Below, in pieces: positions 9,499 to 61,181 of a stretch of DNA of 64,000 nt (position 1 is the first letter of the stretch; every line of letters starts with the position of its first letter). The position numbers were made by a program, and so were the translations under genes. The notes below the pieces were generated by a model, which saw only the letters and a program-made list of their open reading frames with translations, had not been told where the DNA came from and ran no database searches. The DNA is from Parcubacteria group bacterium GW2011_GWA2_42_14. GTDB lineage: Bacteria; Patescibacteriota; Minisyncoccia; Sungbacterales; GWA2-42-14. The stretch spans positions 29,421-93,420 of the forward strand of contig LCCV01000002.1 of assembly GCA_000998135.1 (NCBI GenBank). The letters are read 5' to 3'.

Positions 9499-10587
9499 AT
9501 GAAAAAAGAAATAAAAATAGAACCCAATATTTGTAACGTCTGCCAAGAACCCAGGTTACAATATGCTTTCTCCGCCCACGATTATATCACGGACGAAAAT
9601 TTTGAGTTATGGCTATGTCCCGATTGCCAAGCCATGGCAACCATGCCGCGATTAAATGACGAGGAACTGCAAAAATATTATCAAGGCGTATATTATGGCA
9701 GAAGAAAATCATTCGTTGACCAATTTATTAATAACGAAAGGGTTTGGACCATTAAAAAACTTTACAAAACTTATCTCAAAAATTACTCTTTCGGTCATTC
9801 TGCCGCCAGAGGCGAGCCTCGCCTTCGGCGGGAGCGAGGCGAAGAATCTCATGATACTCTATCAAGCGATAAACCTGAGATCCTTCACTTCGTTCAGGAC
9901 GACAATATGTCGATTTTAGATATCGGCTGCGGGAACGGTTTATTTCTAAATGGCCTTAAAAAAATAGGATGGAAAATTGCCGGAACAGAACTCGCGCCGG
10001 AAAGCCATGTGCATCCTGATATATCGCCATTCGTCTGCAACAAGCCGGTTAACGAATGTACTTTTACCGGAGAATCATTTGACATCATTACCATGTGGCA
10101 TACATTGGAACATTTCATAAATCCGTCTCTGTATCTTCGTGATGCTAACAGAATTTTAAAAAGAAGCGGAGTTTTAATTATTGAAGTTCCCAACTTCAAA
10201 TCATGGCAATTTTTGATAACAGGCAAACACTGGTTTCCACTGGAAATTCCCCGACACCGCACACATTTTTCTCCCCAAGCCATTAAAATAATTTTGGAAA
10301 AAACCGAATTTCAGATAGTGCGGATATCCTACGGAAACTTTTTTTATGATGTTTTTGGGTTCACGCAAAGCATATTAAACTCCTTGTGCCGGCAAAAAAA
10401 TATCCTTTTTAATATCTTAAACGGAAAACTTTCTGCTTCTATCAACGGAGTACGAAGCGTATTTGATGTTTTTATAACAGTAGTACTCACTCCCCCGCTT
10501 TCAATTATCGGCATAATATTGTTTTTTATAGAAATCGCGACAAAACACGGAGGAACTATGCGGATTTATTCCAAAAAAACATCATAG
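9499..10587 (+). CDS. Class I SAM methyltransferase with N-terminal Zn-ribbon. Carries an in-frame repeat-derived insert.
   Basis: CxxC...CxxC N-terminus and motif I ILDIGCGNGLF. Nucleotides about 9797-9910 (peptide GHSAARGEPRLRRERGEESHDTLSSDKPEILHFVQDD) match repeat families found elsewhere in the window. Confidence 0.7.
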   Translation: MKKEIKIEPNICNVCQEPRLQYAFSAHDYITDENFELWLCPDCQAMATMPRLNDEELQKYYQGVYYGRRKSFVDQFINNERVWTIKKLYKTYLKNYSFGHSAARGEPRLRRERGEESHDTLSSDKPEILHFVQDDNMSILDIGCGNGLFLNGLKKIGWKIAGTELAPESHVHPDISPFVCNKPVNECTFTGESFDIITMWHTLEHFINPSLYLRDANRILKRSGVLIIEVPNFKSWQFLITGKHWFPLEIPRHRTHFSPQAIKIILEKTEFQIVRISYGNFFYDVFGFTQSILNSLCRQKNILFNILNGKLSASINGVRSVFDVFITVVLTPPLSIIGIILFFIEIATKHGGTMRIYSKKTS

Positions 10588-19178: not shown

Positions 19179-19943
19179 TTATTTTTTAAATATAAACACC
19201 GTAATCACCCCTAATCTATTCAGAAACGGAATTTTTTCCATTACAGCATTAAAAATATTAGAAAAAACAGGAATATACTTGGGGAACGGCAAATGGTATG
19301 ACATTTGCCTTAAAGATAATCCTGAATCTCGGCAAATCTCAATTAGTTCCTTAATAGAAATCCTTTCGTGCGGGCCTTCGGGCATTTTTAATTTCAATTT
19401 TTCGGCTAAATCCAGAATCGGCTCCCATAAAGGATTGGCCATGGATACAATAACTTTTGTACTGTCGGAAGCAAGTTTTGCGATATTTCGCACACTCATT
19501 CTAACATCATCCAGATGCTCAATTACATCTGCCAAAATTATATAATCAAATTTTTCTTCGGTTCGAAAATCAGCCGCCGTTGATTGAAAAAACGTTAAAT
19601 TTTTAAAATTGGCATATTTTTCTTGCGCCCTTTTTATCATTTCTCCGCTTACATCAACGCCAATCCCCAATGACGGCCTAAGTTCGGCTAAAATTTCTCC
19701 GGTACCACAGCCAATTTCCAAAACCCTTGAACCAGCCGGAATAGAACTTTTATAAATTTTTTTGACGGCATCATAATAATACCAATTCTTCCTTTTCCAA
19801 TAGTCGTAAGAAGGGGCTATTTCGTCAAAATGTTTTTGTACTTCGTCCATGCCAATTTTCTCAGCGAGGCAAGCAAGATTGCTTGCCACAGCCGAGATGT
19901 TAGAAAATTGAGCAGTTTTGTTGCTAAAATTGACAATTTTCAA
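19179..19943 (-). CDS. Class I SAM methyltransferase (paralog of the N-terminal domain of 20040..21446).
   Basis: Motif I VLEIGCGTGEILAEL. The N-terminal YDYWKRKNWYYYD... segment is shared with the neighbouring fused gene. Confidence 0.7.
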   Translation of the reverse strand: MKIVNFSNKTAQFSNISAVASNLACLAEKIGMDEVQKHFDEIAPSYDYWKRKNWYYYDAVKKIYKSSIPAGSRVLEIGCGTGEILAELRPSLGIGVDVSGEMIKRAQEKYANFKNLTFFQSTAADFRTEEKFDYIILADVIEHLDDVRMSVRNIAKLASDSTKVIVSMANPLWEPILDLAEKLKLKMPEGPHERISIKELIEICRDSGLSLRQMSYHLPFPKYIPVFSNIFNAVMEKIPFLNRLGVITVFIFKK

Positions 19944-20029
19944 TTGTCATCCTGAACGAAGTGAAGGATCTATATATCTTTTGAGATTCTTCGCCTAGCT
20001 CAGAATGACAGCACGGCTGTCAATTTTAG
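19924..20029. mobile_element. About 105-bp MITE-like palindromic element with terminal inverted repeats (ctaaaattgacaa ... ttgtcaattttag).
   Basis: TIRs plus an internal inverted pair gtcatcctgaacgaagtgaaggatc / gattcttcgcctagctcagaatgac. The core recurs inverted inside CDS at 9877-9905 and partially at 52030-52075. Confidence 0.55.
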
Positions 20030-20039
20030 ACAAAGCCCT

Positions 20040-21446
20040 TTATATAAATTTAATCTTCCTCATGGCAAAAACGACCATCTCGAGCAAAAGCCAGCCGTGC
20101 TTCCAGCGCTGAATATTGGTCTTGCCGTAAGTTCGTGCATGATACCGAACCGGCAATTCCACTATTTTTAAATTCAATTTAGCCGCTCCGAAAAGCAAAT
20201 CAAAATCGCCAAAAGGGTCAAAATCACCAAAATATGAACGCCCGGCGGCTATTTTTTCGTAATCTTTTTTAAATAAAACTTTTGTTCCGCAAAGCGTATC
20301 TTTAATGCGCTGGCCTAAAAGCCAAGAAAACATAATGCTAAAAAACTTATTTCCCAATATATTAAGAAATCTCATGGCTTGTTTTTCCATAGGATAAACC
20401 AGACGGGAACCATTTATAAACTCTCCTCTTCCCGAACGCATCGCCTCATAAAACTTAGGCAAATCTTCGGGAGCAACCGTAAGGTCGGCATCCAGTATCA
20501 TTAGTATATCGCCCTTAGCCACGGAAAAACCCTTTCTTACGGCATCTCCCTTGCTCCTCCCTTCCTGCGCCAACCAGCGAATATTTCTTTTGCCAGCATA
20601 CTTTTCTGAAACTTTTTTAATCTCGTCCAGTGTGCCGTCGCTTGAATGGCCCTCAACAAAAATTATCTCATTATAAAAGCCGAAGTGGGGCAGGCGCAAA
20701 ATTACCTGTTCTATATTACCTTTTTCATTTCTTGCCGGAATTATTATAGAAATAGAATATTCACGAGACTCGCTTGGAATTGGACGGGCAACAAAATATT
20801 GGACCAGGCATAAACGATTTAGCAAAGGAAAATTAGCGATAAAACGATTTATAAACGCAGAAATTAAAGGAATATAAATAGGAAAAATAATTTTTTTTCC
20901 GCGCTTTATAATTTCAAAACCTGCTAAATAGAGCAAATTTTCAATATCTTTCTCCGACAACCAGTGCTGAAGGGGTTGACGGAATTTCAAACCGAGAACT
21001 TCCGCCAATCTTAATATCGGCTCCCATAAATAATTAAAATAAGTGATTACCACGCGCGTTTGATCATGACTTATATTTTTCAAATTATAAAAGACCTTTT
21101 CAACATCAAAAAAATACCCAAGAACATCCGAAAGAATTATATAGTCAAATCTTTCGCCCAACCTCATTTCTTCGGCATCCATCAATACCCATTCATGTTG
21201 CGGATATTTTTTTTGGGCCAACTCCACCATTTTTGGACTTATGTCAATTCCAACACCGCGCTTAGGATTTACATGCATAAGCAAATCGCCCATTCCAGAA
21301 CCTATTTCAAGCACTGTTTCTCCCGCGGGCACCAAAAAACCAACGAGTTTCTCAATGGTTTTATGATAATACCAGTTTCGCTTTTTCCAATAATCACGGC
21401 TTTCTGCCTGCTTGTTTAGATATGCAATTAATTGTTCTTTATTCAA
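20040..21446 (-). CDS. Bifunctional protein: N-terminal class I SAM methyltransferase fused to a C-terminal GT2 glycosyltransferase.
   Basis: N-terminal VLEIGSGMGDLLMHV (motif I). C-terminal SISIIIPARNEKGNI...ILDADLTV (GT2). Confidence 0.7.
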   Translation of the reverse strand: MNKEQLIAYLNKQAESRDYWKKRNWYYHKTIEKLVGFLVPAGETVLEIGSGMGDLLMHVNPKRGVGIDISPKMVELAQKKYPQHEWVLMDAEEMRLGERFDYIILSDVLGYFFDVEKVFYNLKNISHDQTRVVITYFNYLWEPILRLAEVLGLKFRQPLQHWLSEKDIENLLYLAGFEIIKRGKKIIFPIYIPLISAFINRFIANFPLLNRLCLVQYFVARPIPSESREYSISIIIPARNEKGNIEQVILRLPHFGFYNEIIFVEGHSSDGTLDEIKKVSEKYAGKRNIRWLAQEGRSKGDAVRKGFSVAKGDILMILDADLTVAPEDLPKFYEAMRSGRGEFINGSRLVYPMEKQAMRFLNILGNKFFSIMFSWLLGQRIKDTLCGTKVLFKKDYEKIAAGRSYFGDFDPFGDFDLLFGAAKLNLKIVELPVRYHARTYGKTNIQRWKHGWLLLEMVVFAMRKIKFI

Positions 21447-23714: not shown

Positions 23715-24869
23715 CTATGGAAGTCGGACTTCCGTAGTTATAGACGATATTATTTTTTTTGCCCTCTTTTCCCAAGTATAATTTTCAACATCACGTTTTG
23801 CTTCTTCAACTAATAATTTGGCAGTGCTCGGATTTTCAAAAATATACGCAATTCCGTCAGCCAGCGCTCTTTCATCATCCGGTTGAACGAGCCATGAGTT
23901 TTTTTTATGAACTAACACCTCTTGAATGGCGCTCGTTCCCGAAGCCACTATCGGCCTGCCTGATGCCATATACTCAAAAAGCTTCAGGGGAGAGGTAAAA
24001 TAATTGGAATGCTCGTCTTTAGCGGTCCCGGTAATAACAAGACAATCAGCCGCTTTAAGATAAAACGGAATCTCCGAATATTTTTTCTGGCCGATTAATA
24101 TTATGTTTTCAGGAAGTTTCTCTTTAAGAAGCGTGGAATCTTCGGGGGTGCCGCCGCCAACCAGCAAAACTGTTATATCTTTTGGCAAAAGGGCGGCCGC
24201 TTTAATTAATGTATCAATCCCCTTCCAGCTGTAAAAATGCCCCGTATATACCACATAACGTCCTTTAACAGCCAAACCGAGTTTACGGCGAGCATCTTCT
24301 TTGGTTATCGAAAGAGCAAAATCCTCAATGGAAACTCCATCCGGAGCCCAAACAACTTTGTCTTTCATGCCTTTTATGGACTGATATATTTCTTTAGCCG
24401 AGCGGTTGATGGCTACGGCCAATTTCAGCCGCGGAAAAAATCTCTGATATTTCTTTTCAGCAAGAAAATGAAACTCGCTAATCAGTTTTTTCTTACAGAA
24501 AATGAAAAACCAAAAAAGTATGGAGTCATGGCGAAAATATAAAAAATCATGACTATGGGTCATACTATGAAACGCCGCGGACAATGAAAAAGTAACGCTA
24601 ATCAGCCAATAAGGAATAGGGCCTAAAAAATAAAGGTAAGGAATTAAATCCAAACAAGCAAGTTTTTTAAGCTTAAAAACCCTTTCAACTTTATAATAAT
24701 CAAAAGGGTCCTCATTCATTGCTTCTGTTTTTCGCCGCGGAATAACAAGTTCAAGTTCCACGCCGTTTTTGGCCATGGCCTCGCAGGTTTTCATAATCTG
24801 CAAACCGTTGGCCCTGTCGGTGGGTATTCTTTCGTTAGCTATATATAATAATTTTATTTTTTCGCGCAT
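23715..24869 (-). CDS. GT4 family (GT-B, retaining) glycosyltransferase.
   Basis: C-terminal Glycos_transf_1 pattern (GGGTPEDST...ADCLVITG...FEYMASGRPIVAS). Confidence 0.7.
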   Translation of the reverse strand: MREKIKLLYIANERIPTDRANGLQIMKTCEAMAKNGVELELVIPRRKTEAMNEDPFDYYKVERVFKLKKLACLDLIPYLYFLGPIPYWLISVTFSLSAAFHSMTHSHDFLYFRHDSILFWFFIFCKKKLISEFHFLAEKKYQRFFPRLKLAVAINRSAKEIYQSIKGMKDKVVWAPDGVSIEDFALSITKEDARRKLGLAVKGRYVVYTGHFYSWKGIDTLIKAAALLPKDITVLLVGGGTPEDSTLLKEKLPENIILIGQKKYSEIPFYLKAADCLVITGTAKDEHSNYFTSPLKLFEYMASGRPIVASGTSAIQEVLVHKKNSWLVQPDDERALADGIAYIFENPSTAKLLVEEAKRDVENYTWEKRAKKIISSITTEVRLP

Positions 24870-26146
24870 GATTCAAAACCGGCTTTCATTTTTAATAAAT
24901 ATTCTTCCTTGGACGGCATTGAAAAAAAACTGGCAAAATCATTCACATTTTGTTTCATGTTATTATACAAATCATCTTCCGAAAATACTTTGATAAGTTC
25001 CGACGCCAAATTTTTAGGACTTATACCGACCGGTAAAATTTTGCCGGTTTTACCGTCCTTAATTACCTCGCTTGCAATACCGACATCCGTAGAAAAAACA
25101 GGAAGACCGCTGGCCAAAGCTTCAATAATTGTCCTGCCGTATCCTTCATAATTTGAGGTTAACAAAAAAAGGTCTGCGGTTTTGTAATACGAAACAAGCA
25201 TTTCGTAAGAAACTGCGTCCTCAAAAATAATATTCGAATATTTGGAAGACTGTCCGAGAACGTCATTGCGAGGGAGCGAAGCGACCGAAGCAATCTCTAA
25301 ATAAGCCGTTTTTGGATTGCTTCCCGCCACGCTCCCCTCGGTCGCTCGCGGTCGCAATGACGGAAACGACGGTTTTCGTACGTTCTGCCCCAAATTTTCG
25401 TATTTTTCTTTAAGTGTTTTTTTTAACGGCCCTTCGCCAACAATTACCAGCAAAGATTTGGAATGAACCTTTACCACTTCACCAAAAGCAAGGCACGCGG
25501 TTTCTATGTTTTTCTCCCTCGTAAGACGCGAGGCCATAAGAACAATAAAATCATGTTCAGGATATTTTTTATGAAGGTTGTATGTTACCGGCGTTTTTTT
25601 TATTTTTTCCGCGTCAATGAAAATCGGCAAAACCGAAATTTTTGAATCATAAATCTTAAGAATTGAAACAATCGAACTTTTTATTCGTTCCGAAACAACG
25701 CGAACGCAATCGGCTTTTTTTATTGTTCGGGGATAAAGCAAATAACGGATATAATTTTTCCATGATTCGCTTTTAAAAAATGGCGACAAAAAATCGGTAT
25801 GAATTTGCGCCTGAAGGGACAGGCCAAATTTCTTTTTCAAAAAAAAGGCGACAATATTGGTAAAAGCGTCTTGAGAAGTAATTAGTGAATTATGAATTAT
25901 GAATGATGAATTACGGATTATACGTTTGGCGATGCGATAGGCATTAAAAAAATAAAACAGTTTAAAAACTGTATTTGTCGGATAAACCCACGCATTTTCC
26001 GAAATTTTTCTCTCTTTAAATCCTGTATCGGTATAAACTATTATATGCAATTCTTCAGCAATACTGCCGTATTCTTTCATCCTTTCCTGCGCCTCGCTCC
26101 CGTCCCGTAAAATAGATTTATCAATGCTTAACATTATTATTTTCAT
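24854..26146 (-). CDS. GT4 family glycosyltransferase carrying an in-frame palindromic repeat insert.
   Basis: LLVIVGEGPLK...ADLFLLTSNYEGYGRTIIEALASGLPV (GT4 EX7E region). Residues PSFPSLRPRATEGSVAGSNPKTAYLEIASVASLPRNDVL are encoded by the cgtcattgcgaggg...ggtcgcaatgacgg palindrome at 25255-25385. Confidence 0.65.
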   Translation of the reverse strand: MKIIMLSIDKSILRDGSEAQERMKEYGSIAEELHIIVYTDTGFKERKISENAWVYPTNTVFKLFYFFNAYRIAKRIIRNSSFIIHNSLITSQDAFTNIVAFFLKKKFGLSLQAQIHTDFLSPFFKSESWKNYIRYLLYPRTIKKADCVRVVSERIKSSIVSILKIYDSKISVLPIFIDAEKIKKTPVTYNLHKKYPEHDFIVLMASRLTREKNIETACLAFGEVVKVHSKSLLVIVGEGPLKKTLKEKYENLGQNVRKPSFPSLRPRATEGSVAGSNPKTAYLEIASVASLPRNDVLGQSSKYSNIIFEDAVSYEMLVSYYKTADLFLLTSNYEGYGRTIIEALASGLPVFSTDVGIASEVIKDGKTGKILPVGISPKNLASELIKVFSEDDLYNNMKQNVNDFASFFSMPSKEEYLLKMKAGFESCAKK

Positions 26147-43180: not shown

Positions 43181-44041
43181 TTATTTTTTTAGCGCGTCAA
43201 TCTCTGCTGCGACTGCCTTATTATGGGGGTCTAAAGCAAGGACTTTTTGGTAATACTCAAGGGCTTTGGGGAAATTGCCCTGTTCTTTATAAAAACGGGC
43301 GAGGTAGCTTAAAAGGGTTTGGTTGTCGGGGTTGGCGGCGAGACCGGATTCAATTATTTTTATAATTTTGTTGCTTCTCGACTCGCCTGCGGGTTCGCTC
43401 GAAGAATATAAATCGGCAAGGGCTGTATATGGATAAATATCGCCCGGAGCATTCTCTATGGCCTTCTTATAGCTTAATTCGGCCTTAGGATAGTCCTTAA
43501 GATATAAAGCGTATAATCCACCCAGATTAGCAAAAGAGGTGGAATTTTGGGGCCTGATGAGTGAGGCATACTCCCAGGCGTCCCGCGCTCCCAAATAATC
43601 GCCGAAAAATTTCTTAATTACCCCGGCTCTTAACCAATTATCAAGATTATCCGGGCTTTCGGAAACGAATTTGGCAATGTCCAAAAGTTCATTTCTTAGC
43701 TTGGTTTTGACATCTTCAGGATAAGCTAAAACGACGCTTTTATCTTCGTTTACGGTTCCGATTGGGGCGCCATTGTATTGAGGAAGCGTAGGTAATTCTG
43801 TTGGTTTTACAACTTCACCGGACAAGTCACGACCTTCTTTGCGGACAAGGTCGGGACTTGATTGACCGACAAGACCCGGTCTTTTTTCCTCAAGGTCGGG
43901 CCTTAAAACGTCACCGAAAAAATAATAGCCGGAGGCGATAAAGGCCAAAAATAATAAAATAACGAGGTCGCGGAGGAGTAGATTTTTTGTTGAATTGGAC
44001 ATGTTTTTATTAATAGGTATGACTTCGACGAAATCAGGCAA
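43181..44041 (-). CDS. TPR-repeat protein with N-terminal TM anchor.
   Basis: N-terminal hydrophobic helix. C-terminal TPR-like repeats (WEYASLIRPQNSTSFANLGGLYALYLKDYPKAELSYKKAIE...ALEYYQKVLALDPHNKAV). Confidence 0.6.
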   Translation of the reverse strand: MPDFVEVIPINKNMSNSTKNLLLRDLVILLFLAFIASGYYFFGDVLRPDLEEKRPGLVGQSSPDLVRKEGRDLSGEVVKPTELPTLPQYNGAPIGTVNEDKSVVLAYPEDVKTKLRNELLDIAKFVSESPDNLDNWLRAGVIKKFFGDYLGARDAWEYASLIRPQNSTSFANLGGLYALYLKDYPKAELSYKKAIENAPGDIYPYTALADLYSSSEPAGESRSNKIIKIIESGLAANPDNQTLLSYLARFYKEQGNFPKALEYYQKVLALDPHNKAVAAEIDALKK

Positions 44042-44384
44042 TAAAATGATACTCCCTAAGCGAGCCCTGCGAGTCGAAGGGTTTCCTTGAATGTATGCCT
44101 TCGACCCGCTTCGCCAAAGCTTCAGCGAGGCGAGTCAGCGAGGCGAGCAAGCTCGAAGAATAAGCAGAGATTACTTCGTCGGTACGCCTCCTCGCAATGA
44201 CGCCGGAATAGTACCTTATAAAAATTATCATTAATAAAGAGATAAATCAATGGTCGTCATCATATATTGCCTGAACTTGTTGAAGGCATACCTTAATGGT
44301 AAACCCTTCGACTCGGCTCAGGGAATAATATTTATAAACAGACCGTCCGAAAACTATAGAACTTCAAAAAACTCGAACAATAAT

Positions 44385-44416
44385 AAAACCAGCCCCGAAA
44401 GGGGGCTGGTTTTATT
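44385..44416 (-). terminator. Rho-independent terminator downstream of the 1205-aa surface-protein gene.
   Basis: ccagcccc-gaaa-gggggctgg makes an 8-9 bp GC-rich stem, flanked by an A-tract on + and a T-tract on - (ggttttattattgttcgagtttttt in the gene sense). It lies 45 bp past the stop. Confidence 0.6.
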
Positions 44417-44460
44417 AGAATCGTCTAGAGAGGCCACAAGACTCTTAAGACGTTCAGAGG

Positions 44461-47400
44461 TTAGTAGGAAACAACTTCAGCTGCCATGTTCGTCGCGGGC
44501 AGACCTACCACGCCAAATCCATTGGTCCAGTCCTTGCTGGAAAGCGCAGCGGTAGTCGTAGCGTTTGGAGACCAGATTAAGTCATTATGGGTTTGATCAG
44601 CTATACCCGCAGTTGAAGGAGTAGTTGATGCCTGACCCATAATCGGGTTGGTAGCAGACGGTGTTCCGGGTATCAATCCAGGATATGCTCCATCACCTTC
44701 AAGTTGTGTTGATACGGATGAGTTGGTGGAAACCGAGGAAACGGTTGCCACAACATCAAAGTATCTGGTTGCGCCCGCGGGAACTTGAATAACATCTGTA
44801 GGTACTCCTAGAACACTTCCTGACTGAGTTACCGGGTCAAAGTAGACGCTAAACTGGTTACCACCGCCATACAAAACGTTATCCTCAGTTCCAGCGCTAA
44901 ACCATTCTTTCTTATTTTGAACCGGAATCGCGGTATTGTTCAACAAACCGGAATTGGCATAAGCCGCGATTGAGAAGAGAATATCGCTATAACCATACAC
45001 ACGCAAATTCTGCACAGTTGCCGAAGTCGTTGACATCACAAAGGTGAATTTAGCCAATCCTATATCGCCGTGGGAATCCGCGGTTACCTTGAACCTCAAC
45101 AAACTGACAGTACCTGCGGCGAGTTTATTCGTCGACAAGGAAACTTTAGCAAATGTCGGGTAGGACTTGAACATCCTTACGCCGTTGGAAGCTGTGCTTG
45201 AAACCGCGGCAGTATCAGCGGTCTTTGTCTGAATGGTAGAACCGGATGATTGCCCAACGCCTTCCGTTCCCCTGCTGCCTCCGTCAAAATCAACTACAAC
45301 CAAAGCTCCTTCAGTTCCAACCTGCGAAGTGCCGATTGCGCTCAAATCGCCTTTTACGGTCAGAGTCTTATCCCCATCTTTGGGAATCACGAAATCGGCC
45401 GTAAGGGTTGAAGTTGAATAATCGGTACCGGTAAACAAACCTTCTCCGACCTTGGTTGAACCGTCCCACAAAGTATATTTCACAATATCCGCGGGAGCGT
45501 TATTGGTCGTGGAAGAAAGTTTCAATGCAAGTTTTTGAAGCGTAATGGCTTCGTTGGTCGCGTGTAAGTTGAGTAACGCCAACGGAACATCCGTAGTGTT
45601 TCCGGCAACTATCGCGTAAGTCGGACTTGAAGCGCTAAGCGATACGGACAATGAGCCACCTGCAACCAAAGTCATTTCATTCTGATCGTCGGTGGAAGCG
45701 AGATGAGTTACGGTTGCCGCTTGCCCTGATGTAACACCAGTCGCGGAAAGAGTACTTGCCGCAATCTGCCATTCTGCCTGATTACTAGCAGTCAAGTTTG
45801 CAGGAATATTGCACTTGATGGCCAAGGTCTTGGTTGTTCCTTTGGGAATAATCAAGTGGCTATCAAGCGTAAAGGTTTTTGCTCCTTCAGTAGCTATATC
45901 AACAACATTGGTGCCGGTATTCAGGGCGGTTGCTCCGTCCCAAACTTGGCAACCAGTCAAATCTGTCGTATCTGCTCCGGTATCATCCGCAAACGTAAAG
46001 CTAAGGGTGGTAAAACGAATATCCTCGCCGGAAGCCGTTGCGTCAAACACCGGCTTGGCAAAGGTAAATCCTTGTATACCCATAACTACGTTTTGCGCGG
46101 GCGGGTCGGAAGACAAAGTAACAGTAACAACCGCGCTTTTTACAGTCATAGTATTTCCGGTAACTTGTCCAGCTGGAGTCGGGGTAACCGCTGTTCCGGT
46201 AACGGCACCGGTTCCGTTCCTCCAATCCGTTCCCGGAGTGGTGGAAGCGATAATAGTGTCATTATTTTCAAAACCGGAAGTCGCGGCTAATTTGCCCTTT
46301 AAGGTATAAAGGCCTTTTCCAATGGGGAAAGTAATGGAATCGGTAAAGGTTACATATCCATGAGCAACTAAGCTGTTTACGGTATTTCCCGCTTGTCCGT
46401 CAACAGGACCGGCAACAACCGCTCCTGACGGGCCAACCAATACTATATTGTCAATGTCGTCAACATCAATTTCCGCTCCTCCGTCAGAATCAGAAAGAGT
46501 AAAGCGGAAAGAAGTTTCTGGAATCGTTACCGCCTCTCCCTTTACTTCCACATCAAATCCACCCAAGGGCTGGTCAGCAAGAGTTACAGCAACATTTTGC
46601 GATGCTACCGCTGTTGATTTGGATACAACTATGGAGCCAGCGCCGATATTAATGGCATTGGCATTATAAGCCGGGCTAGCTGAATCAAATCCAGCTGTGC
46701 CAGTATCGGCAGGCAATAAGCCATATCCATACTGGGCTCCGACTACATAAAGGTCGTCATGGCGGTAAATGTCAAAATCAACTGTTCTCGCGGAACCGGA
46801 AACAATATCGCCTTTTACGTAAATTTCAGCGGTATTGCCTTTCAAAACTTTGACTCCAGTTCCAAAAACAGAGGTGTAATATTTTCCATCAGAACTTACG
46901 GTCGTGTCATAAGCAGTTCCGGCAACATAAACCTTGACATTAGCAAGGTCGGCCGTGGCCGCGGAACCGGATTGGTTGAATTTGACTGATTTAATCCAGA
47001 TGTCCTCCCCTGCTCCTGCTGTTCCTTTAATAGAAGAGAACACATAACCGGTTGTTCCAACTTCTTTGGTAATACCGGTTGTTGAAGGATCAAGCGGACC
47101 CCTGATAAGGTCAAATCCACCTACAAGGCCTGATGTTTCGTTCATGGTCTGACCGGTGCCTGCAACCGGAAGTCCGGTAACTGTGGCTGAACCAGCGCTC
47201 ACCGCCACAACTGTCAAGCGGATAACCTGTCCGGAATAACCGGTGGTTGCTCCGCGATTAGCGGCAATAGTCATGGTTTTAGAAGTTCCTGCTTTTACGG
47301 TGAAGGGCTCGGTCAAGACCGCCTGATGAAGGGAATTCAAGGTCTTGGAAAGACCTAATTGAAGTCCGTCTTCACCAAGAATAACGATTCCGGAAAGAGC

Positions 47401-48078
47401 CGCATCCTGTCCAATGCCCTGACGTTCAACTGTTACGGAGCTGACAGTTACATCACCGTCAGAACCGGCAGTAAACACTACACTGGTAAATGGAACGCGA
47501 GTTACACTCAACGGAACCAAGGCCGCGGCAGGCTGTGCACCTGCTGATACGCTAAGACCTGTTCCTGATGGAACTGTTGGCGTTGTTGGTGTTTCTGTGG
47601 TTGGCGTTGTTGGTGTTTCTGTGGTTGGCGTTGTTGGAGTTGTTGGAGTTGTTGGAGTTACCGGAGCCACTGCCATTGAATTATACTTTGCCTGGGAAAT
47701 TGGACCAAAGTATCCGACGGCCGGAGAAACCCCGTTTGCCGCCTGCCAAGCAGCTACTGCCGCTTGAGTGACAGAACCGAAATATCCGGTGGCACCCCCC
47801 GCATAAGTGAAGTGACCTGTTGAAGTTAAATAATTCTGCAAGCATGTTACAGCATCCCCTCTTGAACCGACTGTAAGAGCGCTAGTGAAACCGCAAGCGG
47901 CTCCGCCGCCACCTCCTCCGCCGGAAAGGGCGACGAGTTGTGCTTGAAGGGCCGTGATTTGAGCTTGCAACTGGGCAATGAGATCTGCCGTTGACTGTTG
48001 CGCCAATGACGCGACAGGGGTCAGAACCAAAGCTCCGGTAAGCCAAACCGCGGCTGAGGTTGAAATAAATTTATTCAT
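44461..48078 (-). CDS. Giant (1205 aa) secreted cell-surface protein with an N-terminal peptidoglycan-binding-like domain, a PTT-repeat linker and long Thr/Gly/Val-rich beta-repeats.
   Basis: Signal peptide MNKFISTSAAVWLTGALVLTPVASLAQ. A Gly run. PG_binding_1-like GSRGDAVTCLQNYLTSTGHF...GYFGSVTQAAVAAWQAANGV. (PTTPTTETPTT)n linker. The remainder is Ig-like beta-rich. Confidence 0.65.
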   Translation of the reverse strand: MNKFISTSAAVWLTGALVLTPVASLAQQSTADLIAQLQAQITALQAQLVALSGGGGGGGAACGFTSALTVGSRGDAVTCLQNYLTSTGHFTYAGGATGYFGSVTQAAVAAWQAANGVSPAVGYFGPISQAKYNSMAVAPVTPTTPTTPTTPTTETPTTPTTETPTTPTVPSGTGLSVSAGAQPAAALVPLSVTRVPFTSVVFTAGSDGDVTVSSVTVERQGIGQDAALSGIVILGEDGLQLGLSKTLNSLHQAVLTEPFTVKAGTSKTMTIAANRGATTGYSGQVIRLTVVAVSAGSATVTGLPVAGTGQTMNETSGLVGGFDLIRGPLDPSTTGITKEVGTTGYVFSSIKGTAGAGEDIWIKSVKFNQSGSAATADLANVKVYVAGTAYDTTVSSDGKYYTSVFGTGVKVLKGNTAEIYVKGDIVSGSARTVDFDIYRHDDLYVVGAQYGYGLLPADTGTAGFDSASPAYNANAINIGAGSIVVSKSTAVASQNVAVTLADQPLGGFDVEVKGEAVTIPETSFRFTLSDSDGGAEIDVDDIDNIVLVGPSGAVVAGPVDGQAGNTVNSLVAHGYVTFTDSITFPIGKGLYTLKGKLAATSGFENNDTIIASTTPGTDWRNGTGAVTGTAVTPTPAGQVTGNTMTVKSAVVTVTLSSDPPAQNVVMGIQGFTFAKPVFDATASGEDIRFTTLSFTFADDTGADTTDLTGCQVWDGATALNTGTNVVDIATEGAKTFTLDSHLIIPKGTTKTLAIKCNIPANLTASNQAEWQIAASTLSATGVTSGQAATVTHLASTDDQNEMTLVAGGSLSVSLSASSPTYAIVAGNTTDVPLALLNLHATNEAITLQKLALKLSSTTNNAPADIVKYTLWDGSTKVGEGLFTGTDYSTSTLTADFVIPKDGDKTLTVKGDLSAIGTSQVGTEGALVVVDFDGGSRGTEGVGQSSGSTIQTKTADTAAVSSTASNGVRMFKSYPTFAKVSLSTNKLAAGTVSLLRFKVTADSHGDIGLAKFTFVMSTTSATVQNLRVYGYSDILFSIAAYANSGLLNNTAIPVQNKKEWFSAGTEDNVLYGGGNQFSVYFDPVTQSGSVLGVPTDVIQVPAGATRYFDVVATVSSVSTNSSVSTQLEGDGAYPGLIPGTPSATNPIMGQASTTPSTAGIADQTHNDLIWSPNATTTAALSSKDWTNGFGVVGLPATNMAAEVVSY

Positions 48079-51867: not shown

Positions 51868-52076
51868 ACTTTCTTATCCTTTTAGGTTTTCAAAAAACCG
51901 TATTTTATCGGTTGCACATCTTAGAATCTATGTCAAGACCTCAAAAACCCCCATCGGTTTACAATGGGAATTTTTTTCTTTCTTTTACTTATTTTTAATT
52001 AAAAGAGATACTTCATGTAGTTTACCTTGAGATTCTTCACAAAGTTAAGAATGACAATCAAAAGGATCAAAATGAC

Positions 52077-54773
52077 TTAAGCCCTAATAGCCTCCCGCCC
52101 CCTTACTCCATTAAAAACTTTGTTTCTGGCCGGAAAGGAAAACACCACCTGCCCCTCTTTAACATCAACCGTTAATTCGTCTCCGGCTTTAATGCGCCCG
52201 GCAATTAATTCTTCCGCTAATTTATTCAGCAAATACGACTGTATGGCCCGTTTTATAGGCCTGGCTCCGTAATGCTCATTATAACCTTTTTCCATTATAT
52301 ATTTTTTGAGAGAATCGCCGAAAACAATGGAAATTTCCTTTTCAGCCATTCTCTGTTTAACTTTTTCCAGCTGCTGTTCCACAATTTTTACAATAACTTT
52401 TTGGGTCAGGCTGTTGAAAATAATCACTTCGTCCAGTCGGTTTAAAAATTCCGGCCGGAAATGACGCTCCAGGGCCTTGCGGATTTTTTCTTTCAAATCC
52501 TCTTCTTTTTTTTCACGAGATTCTTCGGCTTCGCTGGAAAAACCGAGGTCAGCCATCTCCTGCATAAATTCGCTTCCAATATTGGAAGTCATTATTATAA
52601 TGGTATTTTTAAAATTTACTGTCCTGCCTTTGGCATCAGTAAGGCGACCGTTATCAAAAATCTGGAGCATTATATTGAAAATTTCAGGATGAGCTTTTTC
52701 AATCTCGTCAAAAAGAATCACCGAATAAGGACGGTGTTTTATTTTCTCGGTCAATTGCCCTCCTTCTTCATAGCCCACATAGCCGGCAGGAGAGCCGATG
52801 AGTTTGGAAACAGTATGCCGTTCCATATATTCTGACATATCATAACGAACAAGGGCTTTATCGTCATTAAACATAAATTCGGCAAGTGTTTTGGCCAATT
52901 CAGTTTTTCCAACCCCTGTCGGCCCCAAAAACATAAAAGAAGCAATGGGACGATCTTCATCCTGAATGCCGGCGCGGGAACGCCTGACCGCATTGGCAAC
53001 TTTAGAAATCGCTTCATCCTGCCCTATAACGCGACGGGTTAAAACCTCTTCGAGTTTCATCAGTTTTTGCGATTCTGATTCAAGCATTTTGGTTACCGGG
53101 ATATTAGTCCAGCGCGCCACCACCTGGGCAATTTCTTCCTCACCGACTTCCTCCTTAAGCAGTTTTCTTGATGACTGGAGATTTTTTAACCCAGCTTCGG
53201 CTTCGCGCAATTTATTTTCGTTTTGCGGCAAAAGTCCGTATCTTATTTCAGCCACCCTCTCAAAATTTCCTTCCCTTTCAACTTTATCGGCTTCCTGCGC
53301 CAAATCATTCATTTGTTTTTTAAATTCTCCTATCTGATTGATTAAGCCGCGTTCTTCTTTCCACTTAGTGTTCAATTTTTCAAACTTATCTTTAGCTTTA
53401 ACGATTGTTTTTTCAAGAATTTTTAGCCGATTTTTTTGTTTCTTATGCAAAGCCAAATTGCTTTCCGGCTCCTTTTTTAACACCTCTTTCTCAATTTCCA
53501 GCCGAGAAAGTTCTTTCTTTGTCTCATCCACGTCTTTAGGCAAAGAATCCATATCAATTCTCAAAGAAGAAGCGGCCTCGTCAATAAGGTCAATGGCTTT
53601 ATCTGGCAAAAATCTATCGGCTATATAGCGCGAAGAAAGCTGGGCCGCGGCAATCAAAGACGCGTCCGTAATTCTGACGGCGTGGTAAAGTTCGTATTTA
53701 TGTTTCAATCCCCGCAAAATAGCAATAGTTTCCTCAACAGTCGGCTCATCAATATAAACCGGCTGAAAACGCCTAGCCAAAGCCGGGTCCTTTTCTATAT
53801 ATTTATGATATTCTTTCAGGGTTGTGGCCCCGATTGCCCTTAACTCCCCTCTTGCCAAAGCCGGTTTTAACATATTAGAAGCATCAATAGCGCCTTCCGC
53901 GGCCCCGGCTCCTACAATAGTATGAAGTTCATCAATAAAAATCATAAACCTGCCCTTGGCTCTTTCTATTTCACGCAAAATCGCCTTAAGCCGGTCTTCA
54001 AATTCACCTCTATATTTTGTTCCCGCCACAATAGCGCCTATATCAATAGAAATGAGTTCCTTTTCTTTTAATGGTTCAGGTACTTCACCAGAAACAATTC
54101 TTTGGGCAAGACCTTCAGCAATGGCTGTTTTCCCCACACCTGCCTCCCCTATTAAAACAGGATTATTTTTTGTGCGGCGCGATAAAACCTGCATAACCCT
54201 GCGGATTTCGTCATCCCTGCCTATAACCGGGTCAAGTTTTTCCTCGCGAGCCAGTTTAGTTAGATTGCGGGCATATTTTTCCAATACATTATATTTATGT
54301 TCCGGCTCGGGGTCGGTTACTCTTTGCGAACCGCGTAGTCCGGCCAGGGCTTTTAATATATTCTCATGTCCAATATTAATTTCCACCAATACATCTTTGG
54401 CTCTTGAAGGCACTTCGGAAAGCGCTAAAAACAAATGCTCGGTTGAGATAAATTCGTCTTTTAACTGCCCAGCTTCTCTTTGCGCCTGTTCCATAACGCG
54501 CGCCAAATCCTGAGATAAATAAAGGGAAATAACCGGAGAAAGGACGTTTACGCGCGGCAAACCATCCAGTTTTTGAAGCAGTTTATCAACCAAAGAAGAA
54601 ACATTGATTTCAAGCTTTTCCAAAATCGCTTCCACTGTTCCGCCCTCCTGCAAAACCAGGGCGGTAAGCAAATGCAGGGGCTCAATTTGCTGATGAGACC
54701 GCTCAATTGCCAAGTCATGGGCTTTTTTAAGCGCTTCCTGCGCTTTAATTGTGAAGTTGTTGAATGGAGTCAT
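52077..54773 (-). CDS. clpB: ATP-dependent chaperone ClpB.
   Basis: Clp_N repeats, two AAA+ modules ([15 protein letters not shown] and [15 protein letters not shown] Walker A motifs), a long coiled-coil M-domain. Length 898 aa. Confidence 0.9.
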
Positions 54774-60665: not shown

Positions 60666-60842
60666 CGCTTGTTATTAAAAACACCGCTTATGAGCGGGTC
60701 TTAGATAAAATATTTTATCTTTCCCCGTTCGGTCTTCCTTCGCACGAAGCTTCGGAGGACGAGGATGGATTTAGCACCACATTAACACCTTTTGTTAATA
60801 GGCTGCTGGCGGTTCATTGAGCCAAAACTCTCCCCGCGCTCT
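60666..60842 (-). ncRNA. SAM-I (S-box) riboswitch with terminator in the metK leader.
   Basis: Minus-strand sequence: tttatcaagag (P1 5') ... ggggagagttttggctcaatgaacc ... gtggtgctaaatcc (conserved GUGCUAAAUCC) ... cgaagcttcgtgcgaagg (P4 hairpin) ... aaagataaa (P1 3'). It is followed by hairpin cccgct-cata-agcgg plus a T-tract. Confidence 0.6.
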
Positions 60843-61181
60843 TGATAAATTATTCAATTTTTATAAAACCATCATACTATGAAACGCGAAATGCGCAAGA
60901 AAAGTTATCCACCCCGTTAGAAGTTCGAAAATACACATTGATTTAAAAAATGACACAAAGCGAAAGCGGCTTACCCCGTTAGAAATCCAGCAACATGTCA
61001 ATTACGGCATAACGACGCGGAGCGAAACGGCTCCGCCTTACGTCTTTCTGAATAAAATAAGCTTTTTAAAGATTTCTAACGGGGCTTACGCCTTATGCCT
61101 GTGTCTGAATATGGCCACCCTTAAACCTCTAACGGAGTAAACAAAAACAAAAGGCCCCGAAATGAGGCCCAAGACAAATTA

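What the first reader, a model, noticed from the sequence alone, without database searches (positions are those of the whole stretch)
25255..25385. 130-bp near-perfect palindrome (cgtcattgcgagggagcgaagcgaccgaag...cttcggtcgctcg...cgcaatgacgg) embedded in-frame in a GT4 gene
The long inverted repeat encodes SFPSLRPRATEGSVAGSNPKTAYLEIASVASLPRNDVL within an otherwise ordinary GT4 enzyme. A fragment of the same arm (cctcctcgcaatgacgccgg) occurs in the MITE cluster at 44200-44220. This is the strongest hairpin-forming sequence inside any CDS here. It could affect mRNA structure or translation, or be a hotspot for deletion.
Basis: seen in the sequence. Interest (0 to 1): 0.5.

Follow-up and report, generated by a model that had tools for sequence, protein, structure and literature searches.

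The report
Mobile hairpin repeat inside a gene
The palindrome is a gene-less copy of a hairpin-repeat cassette found across many bacterial phyla, which normally flanks a small GIY-YIG nuclease gene (the Ssn type that cuts single-stranded DNA); here it sits in frame in a glycosyltransferase of a Candidatus Sungbacteria genome, where it appears to be tolerated as a floppy surface loop.

Summary
The element is 102 bp (25261-25362, 34 codons), not a 130-bp near-perfect palindrome. It consists of two unequal inverted arms of 34 and 47 nt around a 19-nt spacer.

Each arm has the form (C)GTCATTGCGA-[variable nested hairpin]-GAAGCAATC. A covariance model built only from arms lying around small GIY-YIG nuclease genes in metagenomes scores both window arms strongly (45.8 and 31.9 bits).

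In other genomes the same two arms bracket a 95-aa single-domain GIY-YIG gene. That gene is 44% identical to the Neisseria gonorrhoeae ORF surrounded by canonical NTS repeats, the Ssn/SRM system of Chenal et al. 2025. The window element is therefore a gene-less arm doublet, related to the cassette as a REPIN is to a RAYT gene.

- Orthologues at 58-63% identity lack the insertion.
- All seven full-length near-identical alleles, found in several independent assemblies, keep it.
- One allele differs only by a 24-nt in-frame change inside one arm.
- AlphaFold2 models the GT4 fold with confidence except residues 255-299.
- A second in-frame doublet sits in a methyltransferase gene at 9793-9904.

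Functionally this resembles Rickettsia palindromic elements, here in a CPR genome. No Ssn gene lies in the window, and the published SRM pattern does not match.

The parts
24854..26146 (-). Host gene: family-4 glycosyltransferase (GT-B fold), 430 aa, carrying the insertion at residues 262-296
   Evidence: ORF. Pfam gives Glycos_transf_1 at 4e-32, matched in two stretches split by the insert, plus Glyco_transf_4. It is 98-100% identical to Candidatus Sungbacteria and Parcubacteria MAG proteins. The AF2 model has mean pLDDT 90, with only residues 255-299 below 50. The EX7E residues E334 and E342 are invariant among 73 homologues.
25261..25362 (.). Hairpin-repeat doublet, 102 bp (34 codons): two inverted arms and a spacer. 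It encodes PSLRPRATEGSVAGSNPKTAYLEIASVASLPRNDV and is absent from orthologues.
   Evidence: Sequence. Protein and DNA alignments with orthologues P0002 and P0003 show the gap. GC is 58.8% against 35.5% for the rest of the gene. Fold z-scores are about -5. Deleting it in silico leaves ...RKPSFLLGQSSKYS... in frame.
25262..25295 (+). Arm A: GTCATTGCGAGGGAGCGAAGCGACCGAAGCAATC. It has an oriented 5' (C)GTCAT, an outer stem ATTGC/GCAAT, a GA/GAA internal loop and an inner GCGAAGC mini-hairpin.
   Evidence: Covariance model R1, built only from arms around GIY-YIG genes, hits 25257-25299 (+) at 45.8 bits, E 4.8e-10. A near-identical arm lies in one of the metagenome GIY-YIG loci L246-L325.
25296..25314 (.). 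19-nt spacer (TCTAAATAAGCCGTTTTTG). It occupies the position that holds the GIY-YIG ORF in gene-bearing cassettes.
   Evidence: Sequence. Cassette architecture arm-ORF-arm is seen in L235 and L164 and in 40 of 76 metagenome loci.
25315..25361 (-). Arm B (read on the - strand): GTCATTGCGACCGCGAGCGACCGAGGGGAGCGTGGCGGGAAGCAATC. The outer parts match arm A; the nested module is different and longer.
   Evidence: R1 hits 25311-25366 (-) at 31.9 bits, E 2.7e-6.
44165..44206 (-). Solo arm of the same ATTGC class, in the intergenic region between ORFs 43181-44041 and 44461-48078
   Evidence: R1 gives 37.7 bits, E 7.5e-8.
9793..9904 (+). Second doublet of a related class (arms ATTCT/AGAAT and GTCCT/AGGAT). 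It lies in frame in methyltransferase ORF 9499-10587, between the zinc ribbon and SAM motif I.
   Evidence: The nearest homologue P0249 (about 80% identity, 327 aa) and all more distant homologues lack about 35-40 aa here. Fragment P0268 lacks exactly the 10-codon inner hairpin.
19945..20010 (+). Third doublet (arms of the ATCCT and ATTCT classes), intergenic between ORFs 19179-19943 and 20040-21446
   Evidence: (18.3 bits for 19981-20014). The ssDNA fold has z -2.1. The same pairing of arm classes flanks a GIY-YIG gene on a Planktothrix plasmid.
52031..52055 (-). Solo arm of the ATTCT class, just 3' of the ClpB-like gene 52077-54773 (-)
   Evidence: (14.4 bits, E 0.13; weak under the ATTGC model).

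Best explanation
**What it is.** The 102-bp element is a gene-less inverted doublet of oriented hairpin repeats of the Ssn-related kind. In its complete form the unit is: arm (C)GTCATTGCGAG-[hairpin]-GAAGCAATC, then a 95-aa single-domain GIY-YIG nuclease gene, then the inverted arm. In the window only the two arms and a 19-nt spacer remain. This is analogous to a REPIN relative to its RAYT gene.

**How it got here (inferred).** The doublet entered the loop between helix 242-253 and strand 306-309 of the C-terminal Rossmann domain of a GT4 gene. It entered after the split from orthologues at about 60% identity. It survived because it is 34 codons long, is stop-free in the frame used, and lands in a surface loop. 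It is now fixed in this Sungbacteria population.

**What it does (inferred from Neisseria SsnA).** When the locus is single-stranded (replication, repair or DNA uptake), each strand presents one sense hairpin at its 5' end of the element. A cognate Ssn-type nuclease would bind this hairpin and nick a few nucleotides upstream, inside GT4 coding sequence. For the protein, the insert is most likely a neutral, disordered passenger.

**Why it varies (inferred).** The variable nested hairpin inside each arm is a hot spot for in-frame module gain, loss or swap. Exchange between dispersed copies that share the conserved outer parts is the probable cause.

**Shown versus inferred.** Shown: family membership, architecture, insertion status, fixation, polymorphism and loop location. 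Inferred: mobilisation by Ssn, ssDNA cleavage in this organism, and neutrality.
For: **The motif is widespread**
Hosts come from many phyla, including Alpha- and Gammaproteobacteria, Chloroflexota, Bacteroidota, Cyanobacteria, Planctomycetota, Omnitrophota, Patescibacteria and Rickettsiales. My own rough estimate is that only a few matches would be expected by chance.
- Patescibacteria copies (L153, L157, L199) have the same doublet layout.

**The arms go with a GIY-YIG gene**
- In L235 and L164 a 95-aa GIY-YIG ORF (PF01541, E 1e-15 to 1e-18) sits exactly between the inverted arms.
- Among 80 metagenome loci with homologues, exact GTCATTGCGA lies within 110 nt upstream in 47 of 78. TCGCAATGAC lies within 120 nt downstream in 62 of 78. 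Both are present in 40 of 76. These loci hold 237 arms in all.

**The arm structure is conserved**
- The outer helix is nearly invariant. All 5 inner-helix pairs covary. The covariation score is 0.248 against 0.064 in shuffles (0/500) and 0.02-0.07 for slid registers.

**The window arms match a model trained elsewhere**
- Scores are 45.8, 31.9 and 37.7 bits.
- A generic oriented-hairpin definition finds 7 arms in the window against 0.085 expected.

**Link to the characterised system**
- The L164 GIY-YIG protein hits a N. gonorrhoeae ORF at 44% identity (E 2e-16). That ORF is surrounded by canonical NTS repeats, CGTCATTCCCGCGCAGGCGGGAATC.
- Planktothrix and Rhizobium homologues carry other arm classes that start with GTCAT and end in ATC.
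- Chenal et al. 2025 (PMC11893778) show that SsnA binds the hairpin only as ssDNA and cuts a few nt upstream. They also show that ssn genes are typically flanked by such motifs.

**It is an insertion and it is tolerated**
- Orthologues with conserved gene order lack it.
- Element GC is 58.8% against 35.5% for the gene.
- Only residues 255-299 fall below pLDDT 50.
- All seven full-length near-identical alleles keep it.

**In-frame module turnover**
- One GT4 allele carries a 24-nt change in one arm.
- In the methyltransferase doublet a 30-nt inner hairpin is either present or absent.
Against: - No GIY-YIG ORF lies in the 64-kb window or in the related Sungbacteria contigs I held. No CPR name appears among the top 120 GIY-YIG homologues. 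A cognate nuclease in this genome is therefore unproven.
- The published SRM search pattern has 0 matches in the window.
- Single arms do not fold better than shuffles under nearest-neighbour parameters. Those parameters do not model sheared G.A pairs.
- Transposition by an Ssn-type protein has never been shown.
- Assignment of the partner protein to cd10448 could not be checked directly. The only PDB relative is UPF0213 BH0048 (E 2e-5).
- Neutrality of the insert for GT4 activity is assumed, not tested.
Confidence: 0.75

Rival explanations
1. It is a classical MITE: a deletion derivative of a DDE-transposase insertion sequence, moved in trans by cut-and-paste through its terminal inverted repeats.
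For: It is a short inverted-repeat element, present in many copies, with both coding and intergenic copies. In L157 an IS256-family (Mutator) transposase gene lies between two full elements.
Against: No target-site duplication is visible at any of the three window doublets or at the Patescibacteria copies. The arms are themselves hairpins whose middle modules differ between the two arms. The gene repeatedly found between the arms is a GIY-YIG nuclease, not a DDE enzyme. The IS256 element in L157 has its own terminal repeats (GGGTAATTAGTACCC...) and abuts truncated elements, so it looks like an insertion into a tandem pair of elements.
Confidence: 0.04
2. It is a REPIN: a doublet of REP sequences mobilised by a RAYT (IS200/IS605-type Y1 HUH transposase).
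For: The logic is the same: oriented hairpin repeats, inverted doublets forming long hairpins, solo and paired copies, no target duplication, and a single-copy gene flanked by the repeats. Chenal et al. draw the same parallel.
Against: The 5' signature is (C)GTCAT, not the GTAG I recall from the REP literature (own knowledge). The flanked gene is a GIY-YIG nuclease (PF01541), with no Y1 transposase found. From my own knowledge, REP families are usually specific to a species or genus, whereas this motif is nearly identical across many phyla.
Confidence: 0.04
3. The hairpin or the encoded 34-aa loop is itself functional here. It might be an mRNA structure that tunes GT4 translation or stability, or an adaptive surface loop of the enzyme.
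For: The sense RNA fold is strong (-49 kcal/mol, z -4.75). The insert is fixed in the population and kept in frame, even through a 24-nt change. Two genes in one polysaccharide-related region carry such inserts.
Against: The stability follows automatically from the DNA palindrome. The same element type occurs intergenically, in either orientation and in phage contigs. It is not terminator-like. The loop is predicted to be disordered and lies in a loop that varies in length among homologues. Only in-frame, stop-free copies can persist inside an essential ORF, so in-frame retention is expected without any function.
Confidence: 0.12
4. It is an assembly artefact (a chimeric or fold-back join) or a chance palindrome in a variable loop.
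For: Metagenome assemblers can create inverted joins. The generic repeat finder did not report the element.
Against: The same insertion is present in all seven full-length alleles at 98-100% identity. These come from NCBI MAGs, JGI and several ENA assemblies. Both arms match an independently trained model at E 1e-6 to 1e-10. No shuffle reached the observed arm-alignment score or fold energy.
Confidence: 0.01

Closest known systems
NTS / Ssn-related motifs (SRM) with the SsnA GIY-YIG single-strand nuclease (Chenal et al., Nat Commun 2025, PMC11893778)
   Same: The repeats are oriented hairpins with a conserved 5' (C)GTCAT and a 3' ...ATC. They are present in many copies. Inverted copies bracket a single-domain GIY-YIG gene of about 95 aa. 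That protein is 44% identical to the N. gonorrhoeae ORF surrounded by canonical NTS.
   Different: The stem is ATTGC/GCAAT with a GA/GAA internal loop and a variable nested hairpin, not ATTCCCGCG/CGCGGGAAT. The published degenerate pattern does not match. The copy here is a gene-less doublet inside a coding sequence, whereas NTS are reported inside genes in only 2% of cases. The host is a CPR bacterium, and no ssn gene was found in the window.
Rickettsia palindromic elements (RPE)
   Same: These are palindromic repeats of about 100-150 bp inserted in frame into unrelated genes. They add a peptide at a position compatible with the fold (review PMC10969869). Here there are two such insertions within 64 kb.
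   Different: Neither the window peptides nor peptides from the Rickettsiales copies of the motif (L244, L204) match any NCBIfam model; I expected that library to include the TIGRFAM-derived RPE domain models, but did not confirm this. The phylum differs. The arms are tied here to a GIY-YIG cassette. No mobilising enzyme is mentioned for RPEs in the one review I read, and I know of none.
REP / REPIN with RAYT transposases
   Same: A doublet of oriented hairpin repeats, with a cognate single-copy gene flanked by the repeats and no target duplication.
   Different: The associated enzyme is a GIY-YIG nuclease rather than a Y1 HUH transposase. The 5' signature differs. The distribution spans many phyla with near-identical cores.
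Bacterial MITEs (Correia/NEMIS, ERIC, BOX, RUP)
   Same: They are small, non-autonomous, capable of forming hairpins, and occasionally intragenic with in-frame fusions.
   Different: There is no target-site duplication and no DDE-type parent. Each arm is an independent hairpin module with a swappable inner stem.

Membership tests
Ssn-related motif (SRM/NTS) repeats | Hairpin-forming imperfect palindrome of about 20-50 nt | tested here: met
   The arm cores are 34 and 47 nt. In 63 arms taken from GIY-YIG loci, 88% of cells in the two helices are paired and the inner helix covaries at 5 of 5 pairs. Both window arms align to that structure.
Ssn-related motif (SRM/NTS) repeats | Orientation given by a conserved upstream (C)GTCAT and a conserved C just after the palindrome | tested here: met
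   Both arms read CGTCATT...AATC(T/C), as does the NTS CGTCATTCCCGCG...GGGAATC.
Ssn-related motif (SRM/NTS) repeats | Match to the published degenerate pattern HGTCWYN(0-2)YYVSBRHN(0-5)WNVSBRGN(0-2)RNCYNB | tested here: not met
   There are 0 matches in the window on either strand (0.08 expected in shuffles). The ATTGC stem and nested hairpin fall outside that pattern.
Ssn-related motif (SRM/NTS) repeats | Repeats of this class flank a single-domain GIY-YIG (ssn) gene on both sides | tested here: met
   This is seen in L235 and L164. Among 80 metagenome homologue loci, the arm is upstream in 47 of 78, downstream in 62 of 78, and on both sides in 40 of 76.
Ssn-related motif (SRM/NTS) repeats | The partner protein belongs to the SsnA clade (cd10448) | tested here: inconclusive
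   The partner is 44% identical over 91% of its length (E 2e-16) to the N. gonorrhoeae ORF embedded in NTS repeats. It is single-domain PF01541. CDD assignment could not be run.
Ssn-related motif (SRM/NTS) repeats | A cognate ssn gene in the same genome | tested here: not met
   A jackhmmer search of all window ORFs of 50 aa or more found none. The rest of the genome was not available, so this holds for the window only.
Ssn-related motif (SRM/NTS) repeats | Bound and cleaved as ssDNA, but not as dsDNA or RNA, by the cognate nuclease | not testable with these tools
   This needs biochemistry. It has been shown only for the Neisseria and Wolbachia proteins.
Ssn-related motif (SRM/NTS) repeats | Many copies in the genome, above chance | tested here: met
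   The window holds 7 arms by a generic definition against 0.085 expected (maximum 1 in 200 shuffles), plus the arm at 44165-44206.
Rickettsia palindromic elements (RPE) | Palindromic repeat inserted in frame in ORFs without disrupting them | tested here: met
   GT4 insertion. Methyltransferase insertion.
Rickettsia palindromic elements (RPE) | Sequence membership in a named RPE family (the RPE domain models I expected in NCBIfam) | tested here: not met
   No NCBIfam hit at E up to 10 for any reading frame of the window element, nor for peptides from the Rickettsiales copies. I did not confirm that the RPE models are in this library.
MITE (DDE-type) | Target-site duplication at both ends | tested here: not met
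   The flanks of the three window doublets and of L153 show no direct repeat at the element ends.
MITE (DDE-type) | A parent IS with the same terminal repeats that encodes a transposase | tested here: not met
   The gene between the arms is a GIY-YIG nuclease. The IS256-type element in L157 has different termini.
REP/REPIN-RAYT | Repeats flank a Y1 (RAYT) transposase gene, and the REP carries a 5' GTAG | tested here: not met
   The 5' signature is GTCAT, and the flanked gene is PF01541 GIY-YIG.

The most novel reading that the evidence does not exclude
Ssn-type GIY-YIG cassettes (arm-gene-arm) may be a mobile-element family spread across many bacterial phyla. Their gene-less arm doublets would then behave as protein-coding palindromes in streamlined CPR genomes. 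They would enter coding loops in frame and diversify by swapping the nested hairpin module in multiples of three. If so, this would supply a candidate enzyme and a testable mechanism for RPE-like in-frame palindromes. It would also imply that surface-polysaccharide genes of CPR bacteria carry built-in ssDNA cleavage sites able to modulate recombination of incoming DNA.
Probability: 0.3. Interest if true: 0.7.

Novelty: new variant of a known kind. Interest (0 to 1): 0.5.

Why it matters
**Link between two literatures.** The finding ties an anonymous palindrome to a nuclease-repeat system described in 2025. It extends that system in three ways:
- a distinct arm class (ATTGC stem, tandem G.A loop, swappable nested hairpin) that the published search pattern misses;
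- gene-less doublets as the non-autonomous form;
- genuine in-frame insertions in two enzymes of one Candidatus Sungbacteria gene cluster.

The key paper on Ssn-related motifs does not mention protein-coding palindromes such as the Rickettsia RPEs. A link would give a testable candidate for what creates and moves such elements.

**Practical points.**
- These inserts split domain hits. Glycos_transf_1 is matched in two stretches here.
- They inflate protein lengths.
- They generate spurious 'hypothetical' peptides, so recognising them improves annotation of CPR genomes.
- They also mark sites of recent in-frame variation within populations.

Tried and rejected
- **Generic repeat finder.** It did not report the palindrome because of indels between the arms.
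- **Rfam.** There was no family for the element in the window or in 12 repeat-rich loci, and only noise at E up to 10.
- **Peptide search.** A search of the 5.8-billion-protein set with the 54-aa insert region returned nothing.
- **Pfam and NCBIfam on all reading frames of the element.** No hit. Peptides from Rickettsiales copies also gave none.
- **Literature searches with exact arm strings.** Only primer noise came back. The key paper surfaced only through the related string GTCATTCCCGC. Its supplements are not held.
- **Published SRM pattern.** 0 hits in the window.
- **Hammerhead-like or k-turn readings of GUC...GAG...GAA.** I considered these from memory and dropped them. The element order does not fit a hammerhead, and SsnA does not act on RNA.
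- **Count of doublets embedded in long open frames in other loci.** The count was 15 viral and 15 genomic. It proved unreliable: none of 10 tested frames had a Pfam domain spanning the element, and the lipoyl synthase domains in L127 begin downstream of it. No other confirmed intragenic case was found in that sample.
- **IS256-type transposase in L157 as the mobilising enzyme.** Rejected because it has its own termini.
- **Search for a CPR Ssn homologue.** The last protein search listed only non-CPR names among the top 120.
- **First loose stem-matching scan.** It was no better than shuffles. The tightened definition gave 7 against 0.085.
Full report
**1. The observation**

The window comes from a Candidatus Sungbacteria (Patescibacteria/CPR) MAG. 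The GT4 protein encoded at 24854-26146 (-) is 98-100% identical to OGZ98088.1 and to proteins of related MAGs.

An inverted repeat does lie in frame in this gene, and the quoted peptide is correct. The element proper runs from 25261 to 25362, which is 102 bp or 34 codons. It spans the second base of codon P262 to the first base of codon V296.

The palindrome is not near-perfect.
- Arm A (25262-25295, + strand) is 34 nt.
- Arm B (25315-25361, read on the - strand) is 47 nt.
- The spacer is 19 nt.
- The outermost 11 nt and innermost 8 nt of the arms are complementary, but the middle modules differ. The generic repeat finder missed the element for this reason.

The hairpin is thermodynamically real.
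- The 105-nt stretches 25261-25365 (element plus 3 nt) as ssDNA fold at -29.6 and -30.6 kcal/mol, with z -5.15 and -4.91 and no better shuffle in 200.
- As sense RNA the value is -49 kcal/mol, z -4.75.

**2. It is an insertion**

The closest orthologues are P0002 and P0003 (63% and 58% identity, 395 aa). P0003 in particular shares the gene order around the locus. Both lack about 35 residues exactly here. So do some 70 more distant homologues.

The element has 58.8% GC, against 35.5% for the rest of the gene. Removing it in silico leaves an intact frame reading ...RKPSFLLGQSSKYS....

An AlphaFold2 model built with 73 homologues has mean pLDDT 90. The only segment below 50 is residues 255-299. 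This segment lies between helix 242-253 and strand 306-309 of the C-terminal Rossmann domain. The EX7E residues E334 and E342 are invariant in the family. The insert is therefore best read as a disordered surface loop in an otherwise intact enzyme.

**3. What the arms are**

Each arm reads (C)GTCATTGCGA(G)-[variable module]-GAAGCAATC.
- IMG/VR viral contigs;
- one genome per GTDB species, with hosts from many phyla. These include Bradyrhizobium and other Alphaproteobacteria, Gammaproteobacteria, Chloroflexota, Bacteroidota, Cyanobacteria, Planctomycetota, Omnitrophota, Ignavibacteriota, Spirochaetota, Helicobacter, Rickettsiales and several Patescibacteria.

The copies occur as solo arms and as inverted doublets. 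In doublets the two arms often carry different middle modules, as in the window.

No Rfam family matches. No Pfam or NCBIfam model matches any translation of the element.

**4. The associated gene**

A profile search of all ORFs in the fetched loci found a small GIY-YIG protein in two of them, L235 (a Bacillota MAG) and L164 (Planctomycetota). In both, the 95-aa ORF sits exactly between an upstream arm and an inverted downstream arm.

I then fetched 80 metagenome loci encoding homologues at 64-74% identity.
- Exact GTCATTGCGA lies within 110 nt upstream in 47 of 78.
- TCGCAATGAC lies within 120 nt downstream in 62 of 78.
- Both are present in 40 of 76.
- Many of the remaining loci carry one-mismatch variants.
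- The 80 loci hold 237 arms in all.

An alignment of 63 of these arms gave the following.
- The outer helix ATTGC/GCAAT is nearly invariant.
- An inner helix has compensatory changes at all five pairs.
- The covariation score is 0.248, against 0.064 for shuffles (0 of 500 reach it) and 0.02-0.07 for slid registers.

Between the helices lie G-A on the 5' side and G-A-A on the 3' side. In the commonest subclass the inner part is GAGCGNAGCGAC, which contains GCGAAGC. From my own knowledge this 7-mer is a very stable DNA mini-hairpin. I read this region as tandem sheared G.A pairs, which is an inference.

A covariance model built only from these arms scores the window as follows:
- 45.8 bits (E 4.8e-10) for 25257-25299 (+);
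- 31.9 bits (E 2.7e-6) for 25311-25366 (-);
- 37.7 bits (E 7.5e-8) for a solo arm at 44165-44206 (-).

**5. Link to a characterised system**

A literature search with the related string GTCATTCCCGC led to Chenal et al., Nat Commun 2025 (PMC11893778). The paper makes these points.
- It defines the Neisseria NTS repeat as CGTCATTCCCGCGMAVGCGGGAATCYRG.
- It generalises this to Ssn-related motifs (SRM).
- The 94-aa single-domain GIY-YIG protein SsnA binds the hairpin only as ssDNA, not as dsDNA or RNA.
- SsnA cuts a few nucleotides upstream of the hairpin.
- 42% of ssn homologues are flanked by SRMs on both sides.
- The NTS-ssnA-NTS layout resembles an insertion sequence and the REP/RAYT relationship.

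To connect my GIY-YIG subfamily with theirs, I searched plasmid records by tblastn. This hit a 2.17-Mb N. gonorrhoeae replicon filed as a plasmid, at 44% identity over 91% of the query (E 2e-16). That ORF is embedded in canonical NTS repeats.

Other homologues carry other arm classes.
- A Planktothrix homologue (57% identity) is flanked by doublets with arms GTCATTCTGAG...GAAGAATC and GTCATCCTGAA...GAAGGATC.
- A Rhizobium homologue (53%) is flanked by GTCATCCCAGGG...CCCTGGGATC.

All begin with GTCAT and end in ATC, and the stem varies with the protein lineage. The window arms are thus a distinct class within this scheme.

The class falls outside the published degenerate pattern, which has no match in the window. 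I could not verify the cd10448 assignment directly. The only solved relative is UPF0213 BH0048.

The GIY-YIG family is very large. All 8000 scored candidates passed E 1e-5. Listed identities were mostly 65-80%, and named hosts span Firmicutes, Chloroflexi, Nostoc, Desulfobacteraceae, WOR-3 and KSB1. This pattern suggests frequent horizontal transfer.

**6. Interpretation**

The window element is the arm-spacer-arm remnant, or non-autonomous form, of the arm-GIY-YIG-arm cassette. No target-site duplication is visible at any copy I inspected. This argues against a DDE-type MITE. The flanked gene and the 5' signature argue against REP/RAYT.

Because the repeats are oriented, each DNA strand of a doublet carries one sense hairpin at its 5' side. 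A cognate nuclease would then nick just outside the element on each strand, within GT4 coding sequence. This is inferred from the Neisseria enzyme and not shown here.

No GIY-YIG ORF lies in the window. I could not establish whether this genome or any CPR genome encodes one.

**7. Population data**

All seven full-length members of the 90% cluster carry the insertion. They come from NCBI MAGs, JGI and several ENA assemblies. This excludes an assembly artefact and shows the insertion is fixed in the sampled population.

One allele (P0246, from ENA assembly ERZ4903125) is identical over the aligned 245 nt except for one change. It has a 24-nt in-frame insertion plus two substitutions in the nested module of arm A.

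What varies is the inner hairpin module, in multiples of three, and not the presence of the element.

**8. A second in-frame copy**

A generic definition of the oriented hairpin is GTC[AG]T + 3 nt ... GA(A) + reverse complement of those 3 nt + A[TC]C. It finds 7 arms in the window against 0.085 expected (maximum 1 in 200 shuffles). Together with the arm at 44165-44206, the arms form:
- three doublets, at 9793-9904, 19945-20010 and 25261-25362;
- two solo arms, at 44165-44206 and 52031-52055.

The doublet at 9793-9904 lies inside ORF 9499-10587. This ORF encodes a zinc-ribbon plus Methyltransf_23 protein, and the doublet sits just before SAM motif I.
- The nearest homologue (P0249, about 80% identity, 327 aa) and all more distant homologues lack about 35-40 residues there.
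- P0249 has in their place a short stretch (RFFADAQNDE) that looks like a solo arm.
- The fragment P0268 lacks exactly the 10-codon nested hairpin.

Two of the three doublets in this 64-kb stretch are therefore in-frame coding insertions. In the loci from other organisms I found no confirmed case. Ten candidate 'embedded' doublets all turned out to lie in spurious open frames or upstream of the true start. One Patescibacteria O-antigen ligase (L153) ends in an element-encoded tail.

This behaviour resembles the Rickettsia palindromic elements. The translations match no NCBIfam model, in a library where I expected the RPE domain models to be present. The Ssn paper does not mention RPEs, MITEs or coding insertions.

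**9. Verdict**

The feature is real and is explained by a known kind of system, the Ssn-related hairpin repeats. It differs in three respects not covered by the only paper I found on that system:
- a new arm class;
- a gene-less doublet form;
- recurrent in-frame insertion into CPR enzymes, with modular in-frame turnover.

I rate it a new variant of a known kind, of moderate interest.

The main gaps are:
- the missing cognate nuclease in this genome;
- the lack of any demonstrated mobility mechanism;
- the untested effect of the insert on the enzyme.

Noticed in passing
window 9793-9904 (ORF 9499-10587, +): A second hairpin-repeat doublet (arm classes ATTCT and GTCCT) lies in frame in a zinc-ribbon/Methyltransf_23 gene, just before SAM motif I. 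Homologues lack about 35-40 aa here. Fragment P0268 lacks exactly the 10-codon nested hairpin.
   Followed up: yes
window 19945-20010: An intergenic doublet has one ATCCT-class arm and one ATTCT-class arm. It lies between a methyltransferase gene (19179-19943) and a methyltransferase/GT2 fusion gene (20040-21446). The same arm pairing flanks a GIY-YIG gene on a Planktothrix agardhii plasmid (L327).
   Followed up: partly
window 52031-52055 (-) and 44165-44206 (-): There are two solo arms. One lies just 3' of a ClpB-like gene (52077-54773). The other lies in the repeat-rich intergenic region 44042-44460, next to a 1205-aa surface-type protein gene. That region also holds a second hairpin family (CCCTGCGAGTCGAAGGG and its partner CCCTTCGACTCGGCTCAGGG).
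   Followed up: partly
L329 2227-2471 compared with window 25200-25420: An otherwise identical GT4 allele from another assembly carries a 24-nt in-frame insertion plus 2 substitutions inside the nested module of one arm. It encodes EPVLSGANV in place of S.
   Followed up: yes
L001 3765-3797; window 23719-23732: The closest orthologue that lacks the element (P0002) has, in the same loop, a different small palindrome made of two inverted copies of GGAAGTNGGACTTC. The same 14-mer forms the 3' end of the neighbouring GT gene in the window, in L004 and in L329. This loop seems to be a recurrent landing site for palindromes.
   Followed up: partly
L164 4678-5795 (Planctomycetota MAG): The arm-GIY-YIG-arm cassette is flanked by a direct duplication of about 115 bp. 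The duplicated sequence is the 5' end of the downstream gene (MNVSYNWLKELVEFDL..., which looks like pheT; my reading, not tested). The upstream copy is truncated.
   Followed up: no
L157 555-1838 (Patescibacteria MAG): An IS256-family (Mutator) transposase gene with its own terminal repeats lies between two full doublets, each truncated by 3 nt. It looks like an insertion at the junction of tandem elements.
   Followed up: partly
L153 3691-5265 (-) (Patescibacteria MAG): A Wzy_C O-antigen ligase ends in an element-encoded tail (...SLRGSLATKQSPVSRNKSEIASLPSVARNDRQF*). The doublet therefore supplies the C-terminus and the stop codon.
   Followed up: partly
L007, L009, L015, L026, L034, L078 (IMG/VR contigs): In some phage contigs the arms are mostly solo and lie on one strand (4-6 copies per contig in L015 and L078). 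In several contigs an arm sits immediately upstream of a ribosome-binding site and ATG. This suggests a strand-specific role in phage DNA or transcripts.
   Followed up: no
window 60712-60851 (-): A SAM-I riboswitch aptamer (RF00162, 63.6 bits) is present.
   Followed up: no
P0014 and P0100 (GT4 homologues, alignment A1): Other members of this GT4 family carry unrelated low-complexity inserts in other loops (KTEKASARGGSLSAGRQGVSGGKS; SYLSAPRLRQAGKLKATSHK). These may be translations of other CPR repeat families.
   Followed up: no
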